From sequence record PQ569687.1: a stretch of DNA of 64,000 nucleotides; one strand, 5' to 3'. The notes beneath the pieces are model-generated. The model saw only the letters and a program-made list of their open reading frames with translations. It was not told the DNA's origin and did no database searches. Of the stretch, positions 32,027 through 38,779 are shown piece by piece. Numbering within the stretch: the first letter of the stretch is position 1; every line of letters starts with the position of its first letter. The translations under genes and the position numbers were made by a program. The stretch comes from Klebsiella phage vB_Kpn_K54_rec1.

Positions 32027-32251
32027 ATGTATAAAGGAAATAACCTACGGGAATCGTTCGAAAATTGGTGGGACTCTCTTAGCGATCCTTGGTCAACACC
32101 AGAAGCAAAATCTGCTGCATGGGAAGCCTGGAAGTTTTCAAATTTACGAGTTCTTAATAAAATTCGTTATATGAAAGGTATTACCGAGCGGTGCAATGGT
32201 TATAATGAGGCTATGAATGAGATAAATAATGTTATAGGGGAAAATCCATGA
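32027..32251 (+). CDS. hypothetical protein (74 aa)
   Basis: Plus-strand ORF with ATGA overlap to the next gene. Confidence 0.35.
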   Translation: MYKGNNLRESFENWWDSLSDPWSTPEAKSAAWEAWKFSNLRVLNKIRYMKGITERCNGYNEAMNEINNVIGENP

Positions 32252-33024
32252 GACGTCTTATCGTTATAAGTGGTGCTGGCTTCTCTGCGGAGAGTGGTGT
32301 ACGTACATTCCGCACAGATACTGAATCTGGTAAAGCCCTGTGGGATGAATACGACCTTGAGGAGGTTTGTAACATACACGCCTTCCGTGGTAACTTCTAC
32401 CATAAAACGCACATGTTTTATAACAAGCGTCGTGCAGAGTTACCAACGGTACATCCGAATGCGGCGCATCTTCGCGTGGCTGAGTGGTACAGACGTTATC
32501 CTGGGCAGGTTGTTAACATGACAACTAACGTTGATGACCTTCTGGAACGTGCGGGTGTCCCTAAAGAAGATACTCTTTACATCCACGGGTATCTGAAAGA
32601 AATTCGATACAAGCTCCATGAAGATTCTGAAGAGCAGTTGGTTGACATCGGTTACGATGAGGTAGACCCCGACCAATTTCATTGGTGTAAACCAAACGTA
32701 GTTTTCTTTGGTGAGAATGCTCCGGCCTATGGCCCTATGAATGATACCTTGGAGTCATTGACAAATCAGGATCTTGTAATTGTTGTAGGCTGTTCAAATA
32801 CAGTTATTAACTTCAACTGGGAGTTGTTCCCTGCGGTTATGCGGGGGACCAAAGTTGTTGTTGTTAATCCTGCTATTAGGTATGATGAACAAATGATGTA
32901 TGAGAATGCGGGTGTTCTTGTATATCGTACCGGAGCTGTTGATGCCTTTAATAATCCCGGCCTTATCAAGATAGTTGAGAATCACCTTGAAGGTAAGACA
33001 CCATTGCAAAGCAAGGAGAAATAA
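32248..33024 (+). CDS. Sir2-family NAD-dependent protein (258 aa)
   Basis: ISGAGFSAESGVRTFR matches the Sir2 GAGIS..SGIP.FR motif. Also VVFFGE and VIVVGCS blocks. Confidence 0.6.
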   Translation: MRRLIVISGAGFSAESGVRTFRTDTESGKALWDEYDLEEVCNIHAFRGNFYHKTHMFYNKRRAELPTVHPNAAHLRVAEWYRRYPGQVVNMTTNVDDLLERAGVPKEDTLYIHGYLKEIRYKLHEDSEEQLVDIGYDEVDPDQFHWCKPNVVFFGENAPAYGPMNDTLESLTNQDLVIVVGCSNTVINFNWELFPAVMRGTKVVVVNPAIRYDEQMMYENAGVLVYRTGAVDAFNNPGLIKIVENHLEGKTPLQSKEK

Positions 33025-34328
33025 TGCAACAAGTAAACAGTACACTGTACGCCCTTAATAAAGATGGTTCTTTCCAGTGTTGGAAGGTGTTTATTGCTGG
33101 TAATCAGGTAGTTGTAGAGTTTGGCAAGGTTGGTGGTAAGAAGCAACAAAAGGTTACCACCTGTGAACCGAAGAACGTTGGACGTTCTAACGAAACCACC
33201 GCAGAACAGCAGGCATTGGCTGAGGCGGTTTCCAAATGGGAGAAACAGGTTCGCCTTGGATATCGTGACGATACAAGCAAGCTTGAGCAGGAAGAGAACT
33301 TCTCCCCAATGCTGGCCCATGATGCAACTAAACGTTCAAAATCAATAGTTTATCCTGCATACGTGCAGCCAAAGCTCGATGGTGTACGTGCTCTGGTTAC
33401 TCTTGATGCAGATGGCTTCCCACAATTCAATAGCCGTGGTAACAAACTGTATCCTGTACCGCTTGATTCTGAGTTGTCTGAACAGGTTAAATCCCTTTCT
33501 GAGCATTCAGGGTTTGACAAATTCGATGGGGAGCTGTACATTCATGGCCTGAGTCTGCAAAAGATTGTCGCTCTTGCTAAGAAGTGGCGTACACCAGAGC
33601 AGATTCAAGAAGAGATTGAAAAGGATTATCAGTCAGACCTGAAGCGTCATCAGAAAGCTGTTGACAACGGAGAAGAAAGCTGGAAAGATCATGATGGTGA
33701 GGTTTATTCCGTCGCAATTGAACCCGTTAAAGATGTTGATCGTTATGGTGGTTATTCAAGCCTTGATCTTGAATATCATATCTTCGATATCCCTGTAAAC
33801 GCAGGACGCCCGTGGCACGATCCAGATGAACCAGAACAGTGTCGCCTTGCAGATCTGTACACTGTGCAGGAAGCTGTTGAGTGTGAACTGGACATCCCTC
33901 TGGTAAAAACTCTTACTGGCGAGTTTGTGAACAACGAGCTTCTGGTCAAGAGTTTTATTGGACATTACATGCAGAGTGGTTTCGAGGGTGTTATCATTCG
34001 AAACTACAAAGGCCTGTATGAATTTGGACAGCGTTCATCAGACCTTCTAAAATGGAAATTGTTCCAAGATGGTGAGGCTAAAGTCCTTGATTCTGTGGAA
34101 GATAAGAACGGTGAGGGTGTCCTTCTTTGTGAAGAGAAAGATGGTACACGTTTCAACTGTAAAATGAAGGGAACCCACGCAGAGCGATCTCAGGAAAGAA
34201 TGCTCCTGCTGGTGGATAAGTTTATTAACTTCACGTTCCAGGCTAGAACTGATGATGGTGTTCCTCAGTTCCCTGTGGGCCAAAGCGTTCGTGAACTCGA
34301 TACATTAACATGGGAGCCTGTATACTAA
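33024..34328 (+). CDS. ATP-dependent DNA ligase (434 aa)
   Basis: Motif I KLDGVR, with further ligase blocks. Confidence 0.75.
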   Translation: MQQVNSTLYALNKDGSFQCWKVFIAGNQVVVEFGKVGGKKQQKVTTCEPKNVGRSNETTAEQQALAEAVSKWEKQVRLGYRDDTSKLEQEENFSPMLAHDATKRSKSIVYPAYVQPKLDGVRALVTLDADGFPQFNSRGNKLYPVPLDSELSEQVKSLSEHSGFDKFDGELYIHGLSLQKIVALAKKWRTPEQIQEEIEKDYQSDLKRHQKAVDNGEESWKDHDGEVYSVAIEPVKDVDRYGGYSSLDLEYHIFDIPVNAGRPWHDPDEPEQCRLADLYTVQEAVECELDIPLVKTLTGEFVNNELLVKSFIGHYMQSGFEGVIIRNYKGLYEFGQRSSDLLKWKLFQDGEAKVLDSVEDKNGEGVLLCEEKDGTRFNCKMKGTHAERSQERMLLLVDKFINFTFQARTDDGVPQFPVGQSVRELDTLTWEPVY

Positions 34329-34786
34329 TGGGATTTTATCGTAAAAAACCTGTAGAGGTTGAAGCACATAAGTTTGACGGGTCGTCAACCAGCGCAGGGC
34401 AGATCCATAATTGGATGGAAACTGGTGTGTGGAAGGATTCCGAAATCCACACGCGTGATTGTGGTCGTACTGTAGAGATAAAAACCCCAGAGGGTGTGGT
34501 TGTAGCCTCTGCTGGGGATTATGTAATTAAAGGGGTGGCTGGAGAATTCTATCCTTGCAAATCAGAAATTTTCCATGCAACATATGACCCGCTGGAAGAC
34601 ACTGATCGGGAACCTGGGAACTACCCAGCTAAAGCAATCCGTAAGGGTGATGAGATCATGTTTTGCGGAAAGGTTTATACCGTAACGAATACTGGTGCGA
34701 TGGGGGAGGATGTTATCCTGACTCTCGGCGATGGTTCCCAAATCCCTGTGCGCCCTGATACTCAAATTATCGTAACAAAGGCATAG
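34328..34786 (+). CDS. hypothetical protein (152 aa)
   Basis: The ATG overlaps the ligase stop (TAATG). Confidence 0.4.
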   Translation: MGFYRKKPVEVEAHKFDGSSTSAGQIHNWMETGVWKDSEIHTRDCGRTVEIKTPEGVVVASAGDYVIKGVAGEFYPCKSEIFHATYDPLEDTDREPGNYPAKAIRKGDEIMFCGKVYTVTNTGAMGEDVILTLGDGSQIPVRPDTQIIVTKA

Positions 34787-34790
34787 TAAA

Positions 34791-35141
34791 ATGATCTGGT
34801 ATTGGCTAGCGCTACTAGGCGCATCATTTGTAACAGGAGGCGGCATTTATGCCGCTTACAGATTCCGAAAAGATAAGCTGGATGATTTCTTTGACTGGGT
34901 TGCTGGAAAGGTTAAACGTCTGCTGATCATCTGGGTATTTGTTATGGGCCTTGTTACGCTGGCCCTTACTGTTCCATTATGGCATACTATGACTTGTCAG
35001 TTCGACGGCTGGGCCGCGAATACAGAGACCAGTTATTCATGGTACAAATCAACCTGCCTGTATAAAAGCAAGACAGGGGCATGGCTACCTTTAGGTATCA
35101 GTCGTGATCAACCGCAAGGAGATGGTGATGCATCAAATTAA
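34791..35141 (+). CDS. membrane protein (116 aa, two predicted transmembrane helices)
   Basis: Hydrophobic segments WYWLALLGASFV and LLIIWVFVMGLVTLALTV. Confidence 0.45.
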   Translation: MIWYWLALLGASFVTGGGIYAAYRFRKDKLDDFFDWVAGKVKRLLIIWVFVMGLVTLALTVPLWHTMTCQFDGWAANTETSYSWYKSTCLYKSKTGAWLPLGISRDQPQGDGDASN

Positions 35142-38008: not shown

Positions 38009-38011
38009 AGG

Positions 38012-38040
38012 TTGACAAAAGGCCCGGTGATTAGTATCAT
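38012..38040 (+). promoter_or_regulatory. sigma70-type promoter TTGACA-N17-TATCAT
   Basis: -35 at 38012-38017 and -10 at 38035-38040. It precedes the secreted-peptide and NADAR genes. Confidence 0.5.
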
Positions 38041-38070
38041 CGGGTCTCTACTTACAAAAGGAGATACACA

Positions 38071-38265
38071 ATGATCCGCACAAAAATTCTTATCGCAGCA
38101 TTGCTGCTCTCTTCTCCGGTATTCGCAACTGTAAACACTCTCGATTTGGTTGATGAATACACCGACGGAAGTTCTAAAGTATGCATCTACAGCGACGGTA
38201 ATCGCACAGAATCTGTTCTGAAAGAAGGTGCTGGTTCTTGTCCAAGTAAGAAAACATTTCATTGA
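38071..38265 (+). CDS. small secreted protein (64 aa)
   Basis: Signal peptide KILIAALLLSSPVFA and two Cys residues. Confidence 0.4.
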   Translation: MIRTKILIAALLLSSPVFATVNTLDLVDEYTDGSSKVCIYSDGNRTESVLKEGAGSCPSKKTFH

Positions 38266-38269
38266 GGCA

Positions 38270-38779
38270 ATGATGCGAGTAACTGATAAATACGTCTTCT
38301 TCTTCACATACCGAGATATGTTCAGTAATCACTACCGCCAGGTTATTCCTATTCGTTGTGGTGGTTACGAGTTTTTCACTGTAGAACATTACATGATGTT
38401 CCAGAAGGCAATGCTCTTCGATGACAAAGAAATTGCTTCCCGCATCGCTACGGTTGATAACCCGAATGAGGCTAAAGCTCTTGGTCGGCAGGTAAAAGGT
38501 TTCGACAACAGCGTCTGGGAAGAGAATAGAATGGATATTGTGACTTCAGGCCTTGTATTGAAAATGAAGGCCAACAGGTCTGTTCTAGAAGCGGCGCTTG
38601 GGCATCGGGAGGCTGGTCGTAAGTTTGTGGAAGCCTCCCCTTATGATGCCATCTGGGGTGTTAAATTAAACGAATATGACACACGTATCGATGACCCAAC
38701 CAACTGGCGGGGTTTGAATCTTCTCGGTGAATGCTGGGAACGAGCTATTGATATTGTTGTTGCTGCAACGTGGAGGTGA
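38270..38779 (+). CDS. NADAR (YbiA/DUF1768) domain protein, about 169 aa
   Basis: Conserved blocks FFF...YEFFTVEHYMMFQKA, LGRQVKGFD...W and EASPYDAIWGV recalled from the NADAR family. Start is MMRVTD after GAGG. Confidence 0.6.
   Translation: MMRVTDKYVFFFTYRDMFSNHYRQVIPIRCGGYEFFTVEHYMMFQKAMLFDDKEIASRIATVDNPNEAKALGRQVKGFDNSVWEENRMDIVTSGLVLKMKANRSVLEAALGHREAGRKFVEASPYDAIWGVKLNEYDTRIDDPTNWRGLNLLGECWERAIDIVVAATWR

What the first reader, a model, noticed from the sequence alone, without database searches (positions are those of the whole stretch)
32248..38779. Additional NAD/ADP-ribose-related genes: Sir2-like protein and NADAR-domain protein
The Sir2-like protein carries the GAGxS...GxxxFR NAD-binding signature. 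Phage and bacterial Sir2 domains often act as NADases or ADP-ribosyltransferases rather than deacetylases. NADAR domains reverse DarT-type DNA ADP-ribosylation. Combined with the NARP1-like pair, this suggests that the phage both reshapes host NAD pools and removes ADP-ribose marks, a layered counter-defence that has not been characterised as a unit.
Basis: partly seen in the sequence, partly recalled or inferred. Interest (0 to 1): 0.6.

Follow-up and report, generated by a model that had tools for sequence, protein, structure and literature searches.

The report
Phage sirtuin and NADAR genes, separately
Both genes are real members of families already described in phages: the NADAR most likely strips ADP-ribose from guanine in phage DNA, the Sir2 is a CobB-like sirtuin inside an RNA-repair operon, and nothing here shows they work together.

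Summary
The window is a ~143-kb Klebsiella myovirus, 100% identical to vB_Kpn_K54_rec2 and close to the KB57/KpS8 group. Both genes exist and are already annotated as Sir2 and NADAR in GenBank.

Sir2 (32248-33024) is a canonical class III, CobB/SIRT5-like sirtuin. Every NAD-binding and catalytic residue is conserved, including the YxxR motif. The zinc-ribbon cysteines are missing. It matches no defence-type SIR2 NADase model. It belongs to a clade found in about 990 phage records, including T5 gene T5.102. It sits, with an overlapping stop/start codon on its upstream side, in a metallophosphoesterase / Rnl1 RNA ligase / cREC / kinase / Sir2 operon. This is the neighbourhood for which Iyer et al. 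2022 predicted a KptA-like RNA-repair role. That role is untested, and a protein deacylase role is about equally likely.

NADAR (38270/38273-38779) keeps the full catalytic set. It is 41% identical to NADAR-Bas60, which was shown experimentally to neutralise DarT1 and DarTG1 but not DarTG2.

The genes lie 5 kb apart behind separate promoter-like sites, and their distributions across phages differ. The "unit" idea is therefore not supported in this genome. In other phages, however, NADAR sits inside NARP1 operons. Overall novelty is low.

The parts
32248..33024 (+). Sir2: a zinc-less class III (CobB/SIRT5-like) sirtuin, 258 aa
   Evidence: Pfam SIR2, E 1.3e-23. Best solved-structure sequence match is CobB 1s5p, E 5.6e-21. 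Foldseek top hits are CobB, Sir2-Af1 and SIRT5. Invariant motifs are listed. phrog_2162. The ATG overlaps the stop codon of the upstream ORF.
38270..38779 (+). NADAR-domain protein, 168-169 aa, of the YbiA-type Glu class
   Evidence: Pfam NADAR, E 1.2e-34. Solved-structure sequence match to 8BAU, E 2.5e-15. Model pLDDT 97, TM 0.84 to 8BAU. 41% identical to Bas60 bas60_0111. E39, K46, E121, D126 and W129 are invariant.
38071..38265 (+). Small ORF (64 aa) with a hydrophobic, signal-peptide-like N-terminus (read from the translation), apparently co-transcribed upstream of NADAR
   Evidence: ORF list and GenBank annotation. RBS GGAG, with the stop codon 4 nt before the NADAR ATG. It is syntenic with NADAR in 12 loci.
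38012..38040 (+). Sigma-70-like promoter (TTGACA, 17 nt spacer, TATCAT) in the gap before orf38071 and NADAR
   Evidence: 11 of 12 consensus match in an intergenic gap. This is a consensus match only.
29185..29778 (+). Calcineurin-like metallophosphoesterase, a candidate RNA 3'-end healing enzyme
   Evidence: Pfam Metallophos. phrog_547.
30286..31263 (+). T4 Rnl1-type RNA ligase
   Evidence: Pfam RNA_lig_T4_1, E 4.2e-14.
31260..31604 (+). cREC, a cyclic-phosphate processing receiver-domain protein
   Evidence: Pfam cREC_REC PF20274, E 2.1e-17.
31614..32018 (+). P-loop (AAA_33) polynucleotide-kinase-like protein
   Evidence: Pfam AAA_33, E 1.8e-10. 74% identical to the Bas60 'polynucleotide kinase'.
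35391..36062 (+). MazG-like nucleotide pyrophosphohydrolase, part of the published sirtuin neighbourhood
   Evidence: Pfam PRA-PH. GenBank annotation. Iyer et al. 2022.
25911..26711 (-). Adps-like (PRPS-fold) first enzyme of NARP1
   Evidence: Pfam PRPS domains. Matches to solved PRPS structures. 40% identical to the Bas60 homologue.
24170..25849 (-). Namat-like second enzyme of NARP1
   Evidence: E 4e-123 to the SpbetaL1 Namat structures 9W5X/9W5W, against about 1e-49 to canonical Nampt.
27876..27935 (.). Divergent sigma-70-like promoter pair between the NARP1 block (minus strand) and the RNA-repair/Sir2 block (plus strand)
   Evidence: Two 11 of 12 consensus matches. These are consensus matches only.

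Best explanation
These are two independent early-gene modules of a large virulent Klebsiella myovirus. They are not one device.

(1) NADAR. It is an orphan, antitoxin-like ADP-ribosyl N-glycohydrolase. It most likely removes ADP-ribose from guanine bases of phage DNA modified by host DarT1-type toxins, releasing free ADP-ribose, so that replication can continue. This is inferred from homology to the tested protein NADAR-Bas60.

(2) Sir2. It is a catalytically competent member of the phage-borne, zinc-less branch of class III (CobB/SIRT5-like) sirtuins.
- Inferred chemistry: it uses NAD+, releases nicotinamide, and transfers ADP-ribose onto an oxygen nucleophile of a macromolecular substrate. 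His113 then assists the follow-up step.
- Context: it is expressed from the phosphoesterase / Rnl1 RNA ligase / cREC / kinase operon, next to a 22-tRNA array and divergent from NARP1.
- I take its most likely job to be an NAD+-dependent step in maintaining RNA or the translation apparatus. My estimates are about 0.35-0.4 for Tpt1/KptA-like removal of an RNA 2'-phosphate (the Iyer et al. 2022 prediction), about 0.35 for ordinary lysine deacylation of proteins, and about 0.1 for a free NADase or anti-defence ADP-ribosyltransferase.

NARP1 would supply the NAD+ that such an enzyme consumes. That is a metabolic dependence, not evidence of a joint mechanism.
For: Identity and annotation.

Sir2:
- Canonical Pfam SIR2.
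- The closest sequences and folds are CobB, Sir2-Af1 and SIRT5.
- Invariant residues in 22 phage homologues: GAGxS, FR, Y58xxR61, N94/D96, H113, FGE, GxS and N207.
- Largely the same residues are conserved across 140 50%-cluster representatives.
- No hit to any PADLOC defence SIR2 model.
- About 990 phage records carry it, including T5.102.

Sir2 context:
- Metallophos, RNA_lig_T4_1, cREC_REC and AAA_33 lie immediately upstream, with overlapping stop/start codons at the ligase/cREC and orf32027/Sir2 junctions.
- T5 Sir2 lies two genes from a HAD_SAK_2 'RNA repair' domain protein, and this is conserved in 28 loci.
- Both contexts match configurations 2 and 3 of Iyer et al. 2022.
- The window also holds 22 tRNA genes and a CCA-adding enzyme.

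NADAR:
- Pfam NADAR, solved-structure match and a pLDDT-97 model with TM 0.84 to 8BAU bound to ADP-ribose.
- Equivalents of PnNADAR E43, K50, E125, D130 and W133 are invariant.
- It is 41% identical over its full length to NADAR-Bas60. That protein rescues DarTG1-sensitive phages and neutralises DarT1, but not DarTG2.

Separateness:
- Four 11-12 of 12 sigma-70 consensus sites lie in gaps between and before the two genes.
- The taxonomic distributions are discordant.
- NADAR lies within 10 kb of Sir2 in only 7 of 60 Sir2 loci.
Against: - No biochemical data exist for any member of this phage sirtuin clade.
- The RNA-repair link rests on gene neighbourhood only, and it is not universal. Only 11 of 60 Sir2 loci have an RNA ligase within 10 kb. 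In Bas60 the Sir2 lies about 30 kb from its RNA-ligase cluster. L059 keeps NARP1, Sir2 and NADAR without the repair genes.
- Within each lineage the synteny could reflect descent rather than selection.
- From background knowledge, a metallophosphoesterase plus kinase plus Rnl1 pathway need not create a 2'-phosphate.
- The Sir2 is acidic (pI 5.4), unlike typical RNA-binding enzymes.
- The CobB acyl-pocket positions appear conservatively retained (A76->C41, I131->V95, Y92->Y58, R95->R61; my reading of the alignments, checked). This favours an acyl-lysine substrate.
- For NADAR, in vivo specificity varies between subfamilies. YbiA and T4 gp30.3 are active in vitro but did not protect against DarT1 in one study.
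- NADAR's recurrent position inside NARP1 operons elsewhere suggests a different or additional small-molecule role.
Confidence: 0.6

Rival explanations
1. The Sir2 is simply a phage-borne CobB: an NAD+-dependent protein lysine deacetylase or desuccinylase. It would reset acylation of host or phage proteins early in infection, for example aminoacyl-tRNA synthetases, RNA polymerase or Acs. Its position in the RNA-repair operon would then be incidental.
For: - The best sequence and fold matches are the deacylases CobB, Sir2-Af1 and SIRT5.
- The catalytic residues are complete, and the class III Y58xxR61 motif that binds acidic acyl groups is conserved.
- The acyl-pocket positions appear conservatively retained (my reading of the alignments).
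- The protein is acidic.
- The Sir2 is unlinked from the RNA ligase in Bas60 and in L059.
Against: - The four zinc-binding cysteines are absent across the closest clade.
- The conserved substrate-staple motif V-Y-P is changed to V-I-N-F.
- The Sir2 neighbours RNA-end-processing domains in two very different phage families.
- No phage sirtuin has been shown to deacylate anything.
Confidence: 0.35
2. The Sir2 is an NADase or ADP-ribosyltransferase, and together with NADAR and NARP1 it forms one layered system that reshapes NAD+ pools and erases ADP-ribose marks.
For: - All three use NAD+ or ADP-ribose chemistry and lie within 15 kb of each other.
- The order NARP1 ... Sir2 ... NADAR is conserved in close relatives and in L059.
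- In other viral lineages NADAR is embedded between Adps and Namat.
- The published RyDEP case shows that a glycosidase placed inside a NARP1 operon can feed it ADP-ribose.
Against: - The Sir2 matches no defence-type NADase sirtuin model.
- No macrodomain partner of the SirTM type was seen among the Pfam-scanned or annotated neighbours.
- An NADase would work against NARP1.
- The genes have separate promoter-like sites, and unrelated genes lie between them, including a DNA ligase and an SPFH lipoprotein.
- The phyletic distributions are discordant: T5-like phages have the Sir2 without this NADAR within 10 kb, and Staphylococcus and Listeria phages have the NADAR type while Sir2 hits there are few or none.
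Confidence: 0.1
3. The main role of NADAR here is metabolic rather than DNA repair. It would cleave N-glycosidic ADP-ribose adducts or signals, or reactive ribosyl intermediates as E. coli YbiA does, to give free ADP-ribose that NARP1 converts back to NAD+.
For: - It belongs to the YbiA-type Glu class, not the DarT1-associated Asp class.
- Adps and Namat both lie within 6 kb of NADAR in 4 of 49 NADAR clusters, and at least one of them in 9 of 49. In every two-gene locus listed they are on the same strand as NADAR. Examples are the contiguous Adps-NADAR-Namat in L080 and the larger island in L107.
- Iyer et al. 2022 argued that phage NADARs mainly target soluble ADP-ribose derivatives.
- RyDEP is a precedent.
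Against: - In this genome NADAR is about 11.5 kb from NARP1 and has its own promoter-like site.
- The tested relative NADAR-Bas60 acts against DarT1.
- No small-molecule substrate has been shown for this subfamily.
- Most of the adjacency signal comes from two NADAR clusters.
Confidence: 0.2

Closest known systems
NADAR-Bas60 (bas60_0111, Escherichia phage PaulScherrer) and the AdfN class of orphan phage NADARs (Johannesman, Carlson and LeRoux 2024, PMC11257639)
   Same: A stand-alone phage NADAR with no DarT partner. It is 41% identical over its full length and has the same VEASPYD Glu-type active site. Both come from large myoviruses that also carry NARP1, a Sir2 and an RNA-ligase cluster.
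   Different: The genomic position differs. In Bas60 the NADAR follows an FtsH-like protease region, whereas here it lies between an SPFH lipoprotein and an HNH endonuclease. At 41% identity, specificity cannot be assumed. It is not related to T4 AdfN beyond superfamily level: the AdfN class has His at the position equivalent to E125.
E. coli CobB and human SIRT5 (class III sirtuin deacylases)
   Same: The fold (Foldseek E about 6e-17, TM 0.7-0.8), the NAD-binding motifs, the catalytic His, Asn and Asp, and the Y-x-x-R motif for recognising acidic acyl groups.
   Different: About 28% identity. No zinc-binding cysteines. The V-Y-P staple motif is replaced by V-I-N-F. It is phage-encoded and sits in an RNA-repair operon.
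The phage 'RNA-repair sirtuin' clade, neighbourhood type 2 (Escherichia phage V5 / Proteus phage Mydo), Iyer, Burroughs, Anantharaman and Aravind 2022 (PMC9503650)
   Same: The gene set matches: sirtuin, T4-like RNA ligase, cREC, nucleotide kinase, MazG and calcineurin-like phosphoesterase.
   Different: Nothing of substance. This window is a further example. The proposed KptA-like activity is still an untested prediction.
Defence SIR2 NADases (ThsA, DSR1/2, SIR2-HerA, SIR2-pAgo) and SirTM ADP-ribosylating sirtuins
   Same: Only the Sir2 superfamily Rossmann fold and the use of NAD+.
   Different: No match to any PADLOC defence SIR2 model. No SLOG, HerA, pAgo or macrodomain partner was seen among the neighbouring genes. 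The top 50 structural neighbours are all deacylase-type sirtuins.
RyDEP within NARP1 operons (PMC13232231)
   Same: The concept is shared: a glycosidase encoded inside an Adps/Namat operon that yields ADP-ribose for NAD+ resynthesis. NADAR occupies that position in L080 and L107.
   Different: The fold is different (RyR versus NADAR). In this window NADAR is not inside the NARP1 operon. No activity data exist.

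Membership tests
Sirtuin, Pfam PF02146 (canonical Sir2) | Profile match above the curated threshold | tested here: met
   84.4 bits against a cut-off of 24, covering profile positions 1-178 of 180.
Sirtuin, Pfam PF02146 (canonical Sir2) | NAD-binding GAGxS and FR motifs, the catalytic His, and the Asn/Asp of the QNxD motif | tested here: met
   G9, A10, G11, S13, F21, R22, N94, D96 and H113 are invariant in 22 homologues. They are at least 90% conserved in 140 representatives.
Sirtuin, Pfam PF02146 (canonical Sir2) | A Cys4 zinc ribbon (CxxC...CxxC) in the small domain | tested here: not met
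   The region has one Cys, and it is not conserved. Most of the roughly 30 closest representatives have no CxxC pair; more distant ones keep both CxxC pairs around the same IGY motif.
Class III sirtuins (CobB/SIRT5) | The Y-x-x-R motif that recognises acidic acyl groups, with CobB/SIRT5 as the nearest folds | tested here: met
   Y58 and R61 align to CobB Y92 and R95. The Foldseek top 50 consists of CobB, Sir2-Af1/Af2, SIRT5 and Sir2Tm-type deacylases, with the top matches being CobB, Sir2-Af1 and SIRT5.
Class III sirtuins (CobB/SIRT5) | NAD+-dependent lysine deacylase activity | not testable with these tools
   This needs an enzyme assay. No published data were found for the phage clade.
Defence-type SIR2 NADases (ThsA, DSR, SIR2-HerA, SIR2-pAgo) | Match to a defence-system SIR2 profile, and a fused or adjacent sensor or partner | tested here: not met
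   No PADLOC family at E <= 0.01. The neighbouring genes encode a kinase, cREC, an RNA ligase and a DNA ligase.
SirTM ADP-ribosylating sirtuins | An operon partner with a macrodomain | tested here: not met
   No macrodomain among the Pfam-scanned or annotated genes between about 24 kb and 41 kb.
Phage RNA-repair sirtuin neighbourhood (Iyer et al. 2022, type 2) | Sirtuin linked to a T4-like RNA ligase, cREC, nucleotide kinase, MazG and a calcineurin-like phosphoesterase | tested here: met
   All five partners lie within 29185-36062 on the same strand.
Phage RNA-repair sirtuin neighbourhood (Iyer et al. 2022, type 2) | KptA/Tpt1-like removal of an RNA 2'-phosphate | not testable with these tools
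   This is a prediction only, and no experimental report was found.
NADAR superfamily (PF08719) | Profile match above threshold, and the NADAR fold | tested here: met
   120.4 bits against a cut-off of 35.1. The pLDDT-97 model has TM 0.84 and rmsd 2.4 A to 8BAU.
NADAR superfamily (PF08719) | Catalytic and ADP-ribose-binding residues (PnNADAR E43, K50, E125, D130, W133) | tested here: met
   E39, K46, E121, D126 and W129 are invariant in 23 sequences.
Anti-DarTG1 phage NADARs (AdfN-like function) | Hydrolysis of guanine-ADP-ribose in DNA and rescue from DarT1 | not testable with these tools
   Shown by others for the 41%-identical NADAR-Bas60. Not shown for this protein.
DarTG1 toxin-antitoxin system | An adjacent DarT1 toxin gene | tested here: not met
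   The neighbours are a small ORF with a signal-peptide-like N-terminus, an SPFH lipoprotein and HNH endonucleases. This is an orphan NADAR.
NARP1 (Adps + Namat) | An adjacent PRPS-like and Namat-like pair, with the Namat closer to Namat than to Nampt | tested here: met
   The pair lies at 25911-26711 and 24170-25849. The Namat scores E 4e-123 to 9W5X, against about 1e-49 to Nampt.
NARP1 (Adps + Namat) | Sir2 or NADAR encoded within the same operon | tested here: not met
   Opposite strand, at 5.5 kb (Sir2) and 11.5 kb (NADAR), with separate promoter-like sites. The feature is met only in other phages, such as L080 and L107.

The most novel reading that the evidence does not exclude
The Sir2 is the first sirtuin that acts on RNA. 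In this reading it does Tpt1/KptA-type chemistry on 2'-phosphate RNA ends made during repair of cleaved tRNA, giving ADP-ribose cyclic phosphate. The adjacent cREC and phosphoesterase would convert that product to ADP-ribose. The divergently transcribed NARP1 pair would then rebuild NAD+ from it, closing an NAD+-neutral repair cycle. NADAR would be a second feeder of ADP-ribose into the same cycle. The first step was predicted by Iyer et al. 2022. The closed cycle with NARP1 is my own inference.
Probability: 0.15. Interest if true: 0.75.

Novelty: new member of a known kind. Interest (0 to 1): 0.3.

Why it matters
This finding adds little as it stands. Both genes are already annotated. The NADAR has a tested relative. 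The sirtuin's gene neighbourhood has been described and interpreted in print.

The open question is what the phage sirtuin clade actually does. It occurs in roughly 2% of sequenced phage genomes, including the classic phage T5, and no member has been assayed. A demonstration of RNA 2'-phosphotransferase activity would extend sirtuin chemistry to nucleic acids. A demonstration of host-protein deacylation would reveal a new kind of phage takeover.

The recurrent placement of NADAR inside NARP1 operons in other phages suggests a testable link between removing ADP-ribose adducts and regenerating NAD+.

Tried and rejected
- Defence-type NADase Sir2: rejected. There is no PADLOC hit, and the structural neighbours are all deacylase-type sirtuins.
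- SirTM-type ADP-ribosyltransferase: rejected, because no macrodomain partner was found.
- GTG start at 38228 for NADAR: rejected. ATG 38270/38273 has a GAGG Shine-Dalgarno sequence, and the homologues begin with the sequence MR(V/I)TDKYVFFF.
- Literature searches for experimental work on phage sirtuins found none. One search failed on term syntax, as did one 'find' call.
- I looked for Sir2 or NADAR in the NARP1, NARP3 and RyDEP papers. 'Sir2' there mostly refers to host defence systems and nothing on a phage-encoded Sir2 was seen; NADAR is absent from the NARP1 and RyDEP papers and occurs once, not inspected, in the NARP3 paper.
- The Bas60 genes next to its Sir2 ('putative aminoacyl-tRNA synthetase') gave no Pfam hit and only function-unknown PHROGs, so they do not help.
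- A T5-wide link between Sir2 and NARP3 could not be tested, because no sequence was available.
- A genome-wide co-occurrence table was not possible, because the searches list at most 60 records. I used counts by genus and +/-10 kb loci instead.

Full report
**Identity of the window.** Bases 32000-39300 are 100% identical to Klebsiella phages vB_Kpl_K54lambda1.1.1 and vB_Kpn_K54_rec2 to rec6. They are 96-99% identical to KNP2, KpS8, KB57 and Seu621. These are ~143-kb myoviruses. Window base 1 corresponds to position 63991 of PQ569688.1. That record already annotates the two genes as "Sir2 NAD-dependent deacetylase" and, in RefSeq relatives, "NADAR family protein".

**Observation check.**
- The 258-aa ORF at 32248-33024 (+) matches Pfam SIR2 at E 1.3e-23, 84.4 bits against a cut-off of 24.
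- The NADAR ORF matches PF08719 at E 1.2e-34.
- The mechanical GTG start at 38228 is an artefact. GAGG precedes ATG 38270/38273, and homologues begin with the sequence MR(V/I)TDKYVFFF.
- The interval between the two genes holds about 14 unrelated ORFs. These include an ATP-dependent DNA ligase, a MazG-like protein, an SPFH lipoprotein and small membrane proteins.

**What the Sir2 is.**
- By sequence, its best solved relatives are E. coli CobB (E 5.6e-21), Sir2-Af1/Af2 and SIRT5.
- An AlphaFold2 model (pLDDT 83, pTM 0.82) finds CobB, Sir2-Af1 and SIRT5 as its top PDB matches, with E about 6e-17 and TM 0.7-0.8. No defence-type SIR2 appears in the top 50.
- Invariant columns in 22 phage homologues are G9, A10, G11, S13, F21, R22, Y58, R61, R62, N94, D96, H113, F154, E156, G181, S183 and N207.
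- Y58-x-x-R61 aligns to CobB Y92/R95, the class III motif that recognises acidic acyl groups.
- Two features depart from canonical sirtuins. The CxxC...CxxC zinc ribbon is absent, and the GTS-x-V-Y-P staple motif reads GCSNTVINF.
- Among 140 representatives of 50%-identity clusters, most of the roughly 30 closest also lack the cysteines but keep a D[IV]GY hairpin. More distant ones have both CxxC pairs around the same IGY motif. The loss is therefore a clade feature.
- The protein hits no PADLOC defence model.
- tblastn finds it in 990 phage records. These include T5 (T5.102, 60% identity), rV5-like, phi92-like (Bas60, 56%), KVP40-like and jumbo phages.

**Context of the Sir2.** The gene's ATG overlaps the stop codon of the upstream ORF. 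Upstream of it, on the same strand, lie:
- a calcineurin-like phosphoesterase (29185-29778);
- an Rnl1-type RNA ligase (30286-31263);
- a cREC "cyclic-phosphate processing receiver" protein (31260-31604, PF20274, E 2.1e-17);
- an AAA_33 kinase (31614-32018).

A MazG-like gene follows at 35391. This is exactly neighbourhood type 2 (phage V5 / Mydo) in Iyer et al. 2022. They proposed that this sirtuin clade acts like KptA/Tpt1 to remove RNA 2'-phosphates.

I reproduced their type 3 as well. T5.105, two genes after the T5 Sir2, is a HAD_SAK_2 "Swiss Army Knife RNA repair" domain protein. It lies within about 1.3 kb of the Sir2 in 28 of 60 Sir2-centred viral loci.

The window also has 22 tRNA genes (14.9-22.9 kb) and a CCA-adding enzyme.

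Several points weaken the link.
- An RNA ligase lies within 10 kb of the Sir2 in only 11 of 60 loci, all from one myovirus group.
- In Bas60 the Sir2 is about 30 kb from its conserved phosphoesterase / ligase / kinase cluster.
- L059 retains NARP1, Sir2 and NADAR without the repair genes.
- The protein is acidic, pI 5.4.
- By my reading of the alignments, the CobB acyl-pocket positions are conservatively retained.

No experimental study of a phage sirtuin was found. I therefore rate the RNA-repair (KptA-like) role and the protein deacylase role as about equally likely, and a free NADase or ADP-ribosyltransferase role as unlikely.

**What the NADAR is.**
- The model is very confident (pLDDT 97). 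It superposes on Phytophthora NADAR bound to ADP-ribose (8BAU, TM 0.84, rmsd 2.4 A) and on E. coli YbiA.
- Invariant E39, K46, E121, D126 and W129 correspond to PnNADAR E43, K50, E125, D130 and W133. These are the residues that bind or act on ADP-ribose.
- A Glu at the E125 position places it in the YbiA-type class. The DarT1-associated class has Asp there, and the T4-like phage class has His.
- It is 41% identical over its full length to bas60_0111 of phage Bas60.
- Johannesman et al. showed that NADAR-Bas60, when expressed ectopically, restores growth of DarTG1-sensitive phages by several logs and neutralises DarT1. It does not counter DarTG2.
- NADARs tested so far hydrolyse guanine-ADP-ribose but not thymine-ADP-ribose, and protection in vivo depends on subfamily.
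For this particular protein it remains an inference from homology.

**Are Sir2, NADAR and NARP1 a unit?** The NARP1 pair is genuine. The 559-aa protein matches the SpbetaL1 Namat structures at E 4e-123, against about 1e-49 for canonical Nampt. The 266-aa protein has the PRPS fold.

Within this genome the evidence is against a unit.
- NARP1 is on the opposite strand, diverging from a promoter pair near 27.9 kb.
- Strong sigma-70 consensus sites lie in the gaps at 36059 (12 of 12), 36343 and 38012. The last sits directly before orf38071 and NADAR. These are consensus matches, not measured promoters.
- The distributions differ. Sir2 hits are mostly Escherichia, Salmonella and Klebsiella phages. 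This NADAR type is most common in Staphylococcus, Listeria, Enterococcus and Bacillus phages.
- T5-like Sir2 loci have no NADAR or NARP1 within 10 kb.

There is one positive signal from elsewhere.
- In NADAR-centred viral loci, Adps-like and Namat-like genes both lie within 6 kb in 4 of 49 NADAR clusters (clustered at >=70% identity). At least one of them does so in 9 of 49. In every two-gene locus listed they are on the same strand as NADAR.
- The 9 of 49 figure exceeds a rough chance expectation of 2-4% (P about 1e-4 or less). The 4 of 49 figure is significant only at the 2% rate (P 0.017 at 2%, 0.13 at 4%).
- L080 is a contiguous Adps-NADAR-Namat. L107 is an island of Metallophos, Adps, an unknown ORF, NADAR, an unknown ORF, a deoxyribosyltransferase-like protein, Namat and a PARP/WGR protein.
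- Iyer et al. had already noted NADAR next to NAD-salvage genes.
- The RyDEP preprint shows that a glycosidase inside a NARP1 operon can feed it ADP-ribose.
- Most of this signal comes from two NADAR clusters. In the present phage NADAR is not in the operon.

**Verdict.** Both proteins are further members of described phage families. The remaining interest lies in the untested biochemistry of the widespread zinc-less phage sirtuin clade, and in the possible coupling of NADAR to NARP1 seen in other phages.

Noticed in passing
window 37118-38008 (+): A phage-encoded SPFH/Band-7 protein (Pfam E 1.5e-21). By my reading of the translation it has an N-terminal signal sequence and an LTGC lipobox. 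It matches phrog_200 'lipoprotein'. It is conserved next to NADAR in relatives, and its function is unknown.
   Followed up: partly
window 38727-39215 and 39208-39696 (+): Two tandem HNH endonuclease genes; the second also has a weak, sub-threshold AP2 match. The first overlaps the 3' end of the NADAR gene by 53 nt, which suggests homing-endonuclease insertion beside NADAR.
   Followed up: no
window 14921-22919 (-) and about 57545-58792 (+): An array of 22 tRNA genes, plus a gene annotated as tRNA nucleotidyltransferase (CCA-adding enzyme). Together with the RNA ligase operon, this shows a heavy investment in tRNA supply and repair.
   Followed up: partly
window 26708-27271 (-): A 187-aa protein with weak, mostly sub-threshold matches to winged-helix domains (MarR_2, HTH_36) and a T5orf172 domain just above its cut-off. 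It lies immediately upstream of Adps on the same strand and may regulate or accompany NARP1.
   Followed up: no
window 36059-36086 (+): A perfect 12 of 12 sigma-70 consensus (TTGACA, 16 nt spacer, TATAAT) at the end of the MazG-like gene. Similar 11 of 12 sites lie at 27908, 36343 and 38012, all in or at gene gaps.
   Followed up: partly
L107 7800-14239 (IMG/VR contig 3300012286_000299, 173 kb): An NAD/ADP-ribose island on one strand: Metallophos, Adps-like, a 180-aa unknown, NADAR, a 131-aa unknown, a nucleoside 2-deoxyribosyltransferase-like protein, Namat-like, and a PARP-catalytic/WGR protein.
   Followed up: partly
L080 9119-11952: A contiguous Adps-like, NADAR, Namat-like arrangement on one strand. 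NADAR occupies the same kind of within-operon position that RyDEP has in the mycobacteriophage NARP1 operon.
   Followed up: partly
L091 (345-kb contig) and L138: A distant Sir2-like gene (29-31% identity) lies 1-3 kb downstream of a NADAR gene in large viral contigs unrelated to this phage. Such Sir2-NADAR adjacency is rare.
   Followed up: no
L003 7000-8354 (Bas60 bas60_0185/0186): In phi92-like phages the Sir2 is detached from the RNA-ligase cluster. It is instead always next to a 184-aa protein annotated 'putative aminoacyl-tRNA synthetase', which has no Pfam hit (phrog_9509, function unknown).
   Followed up: partly
window 33024-34328 (+): The ATP-dependent DNA ligase (434 aa) matches the Pfam adenylation domain only over residues 301-345, plus the OB domain. 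The N-terminal ~100 residues have no family match. Its start codon overlaps the Sir2 stop codon.
   Followed up: no
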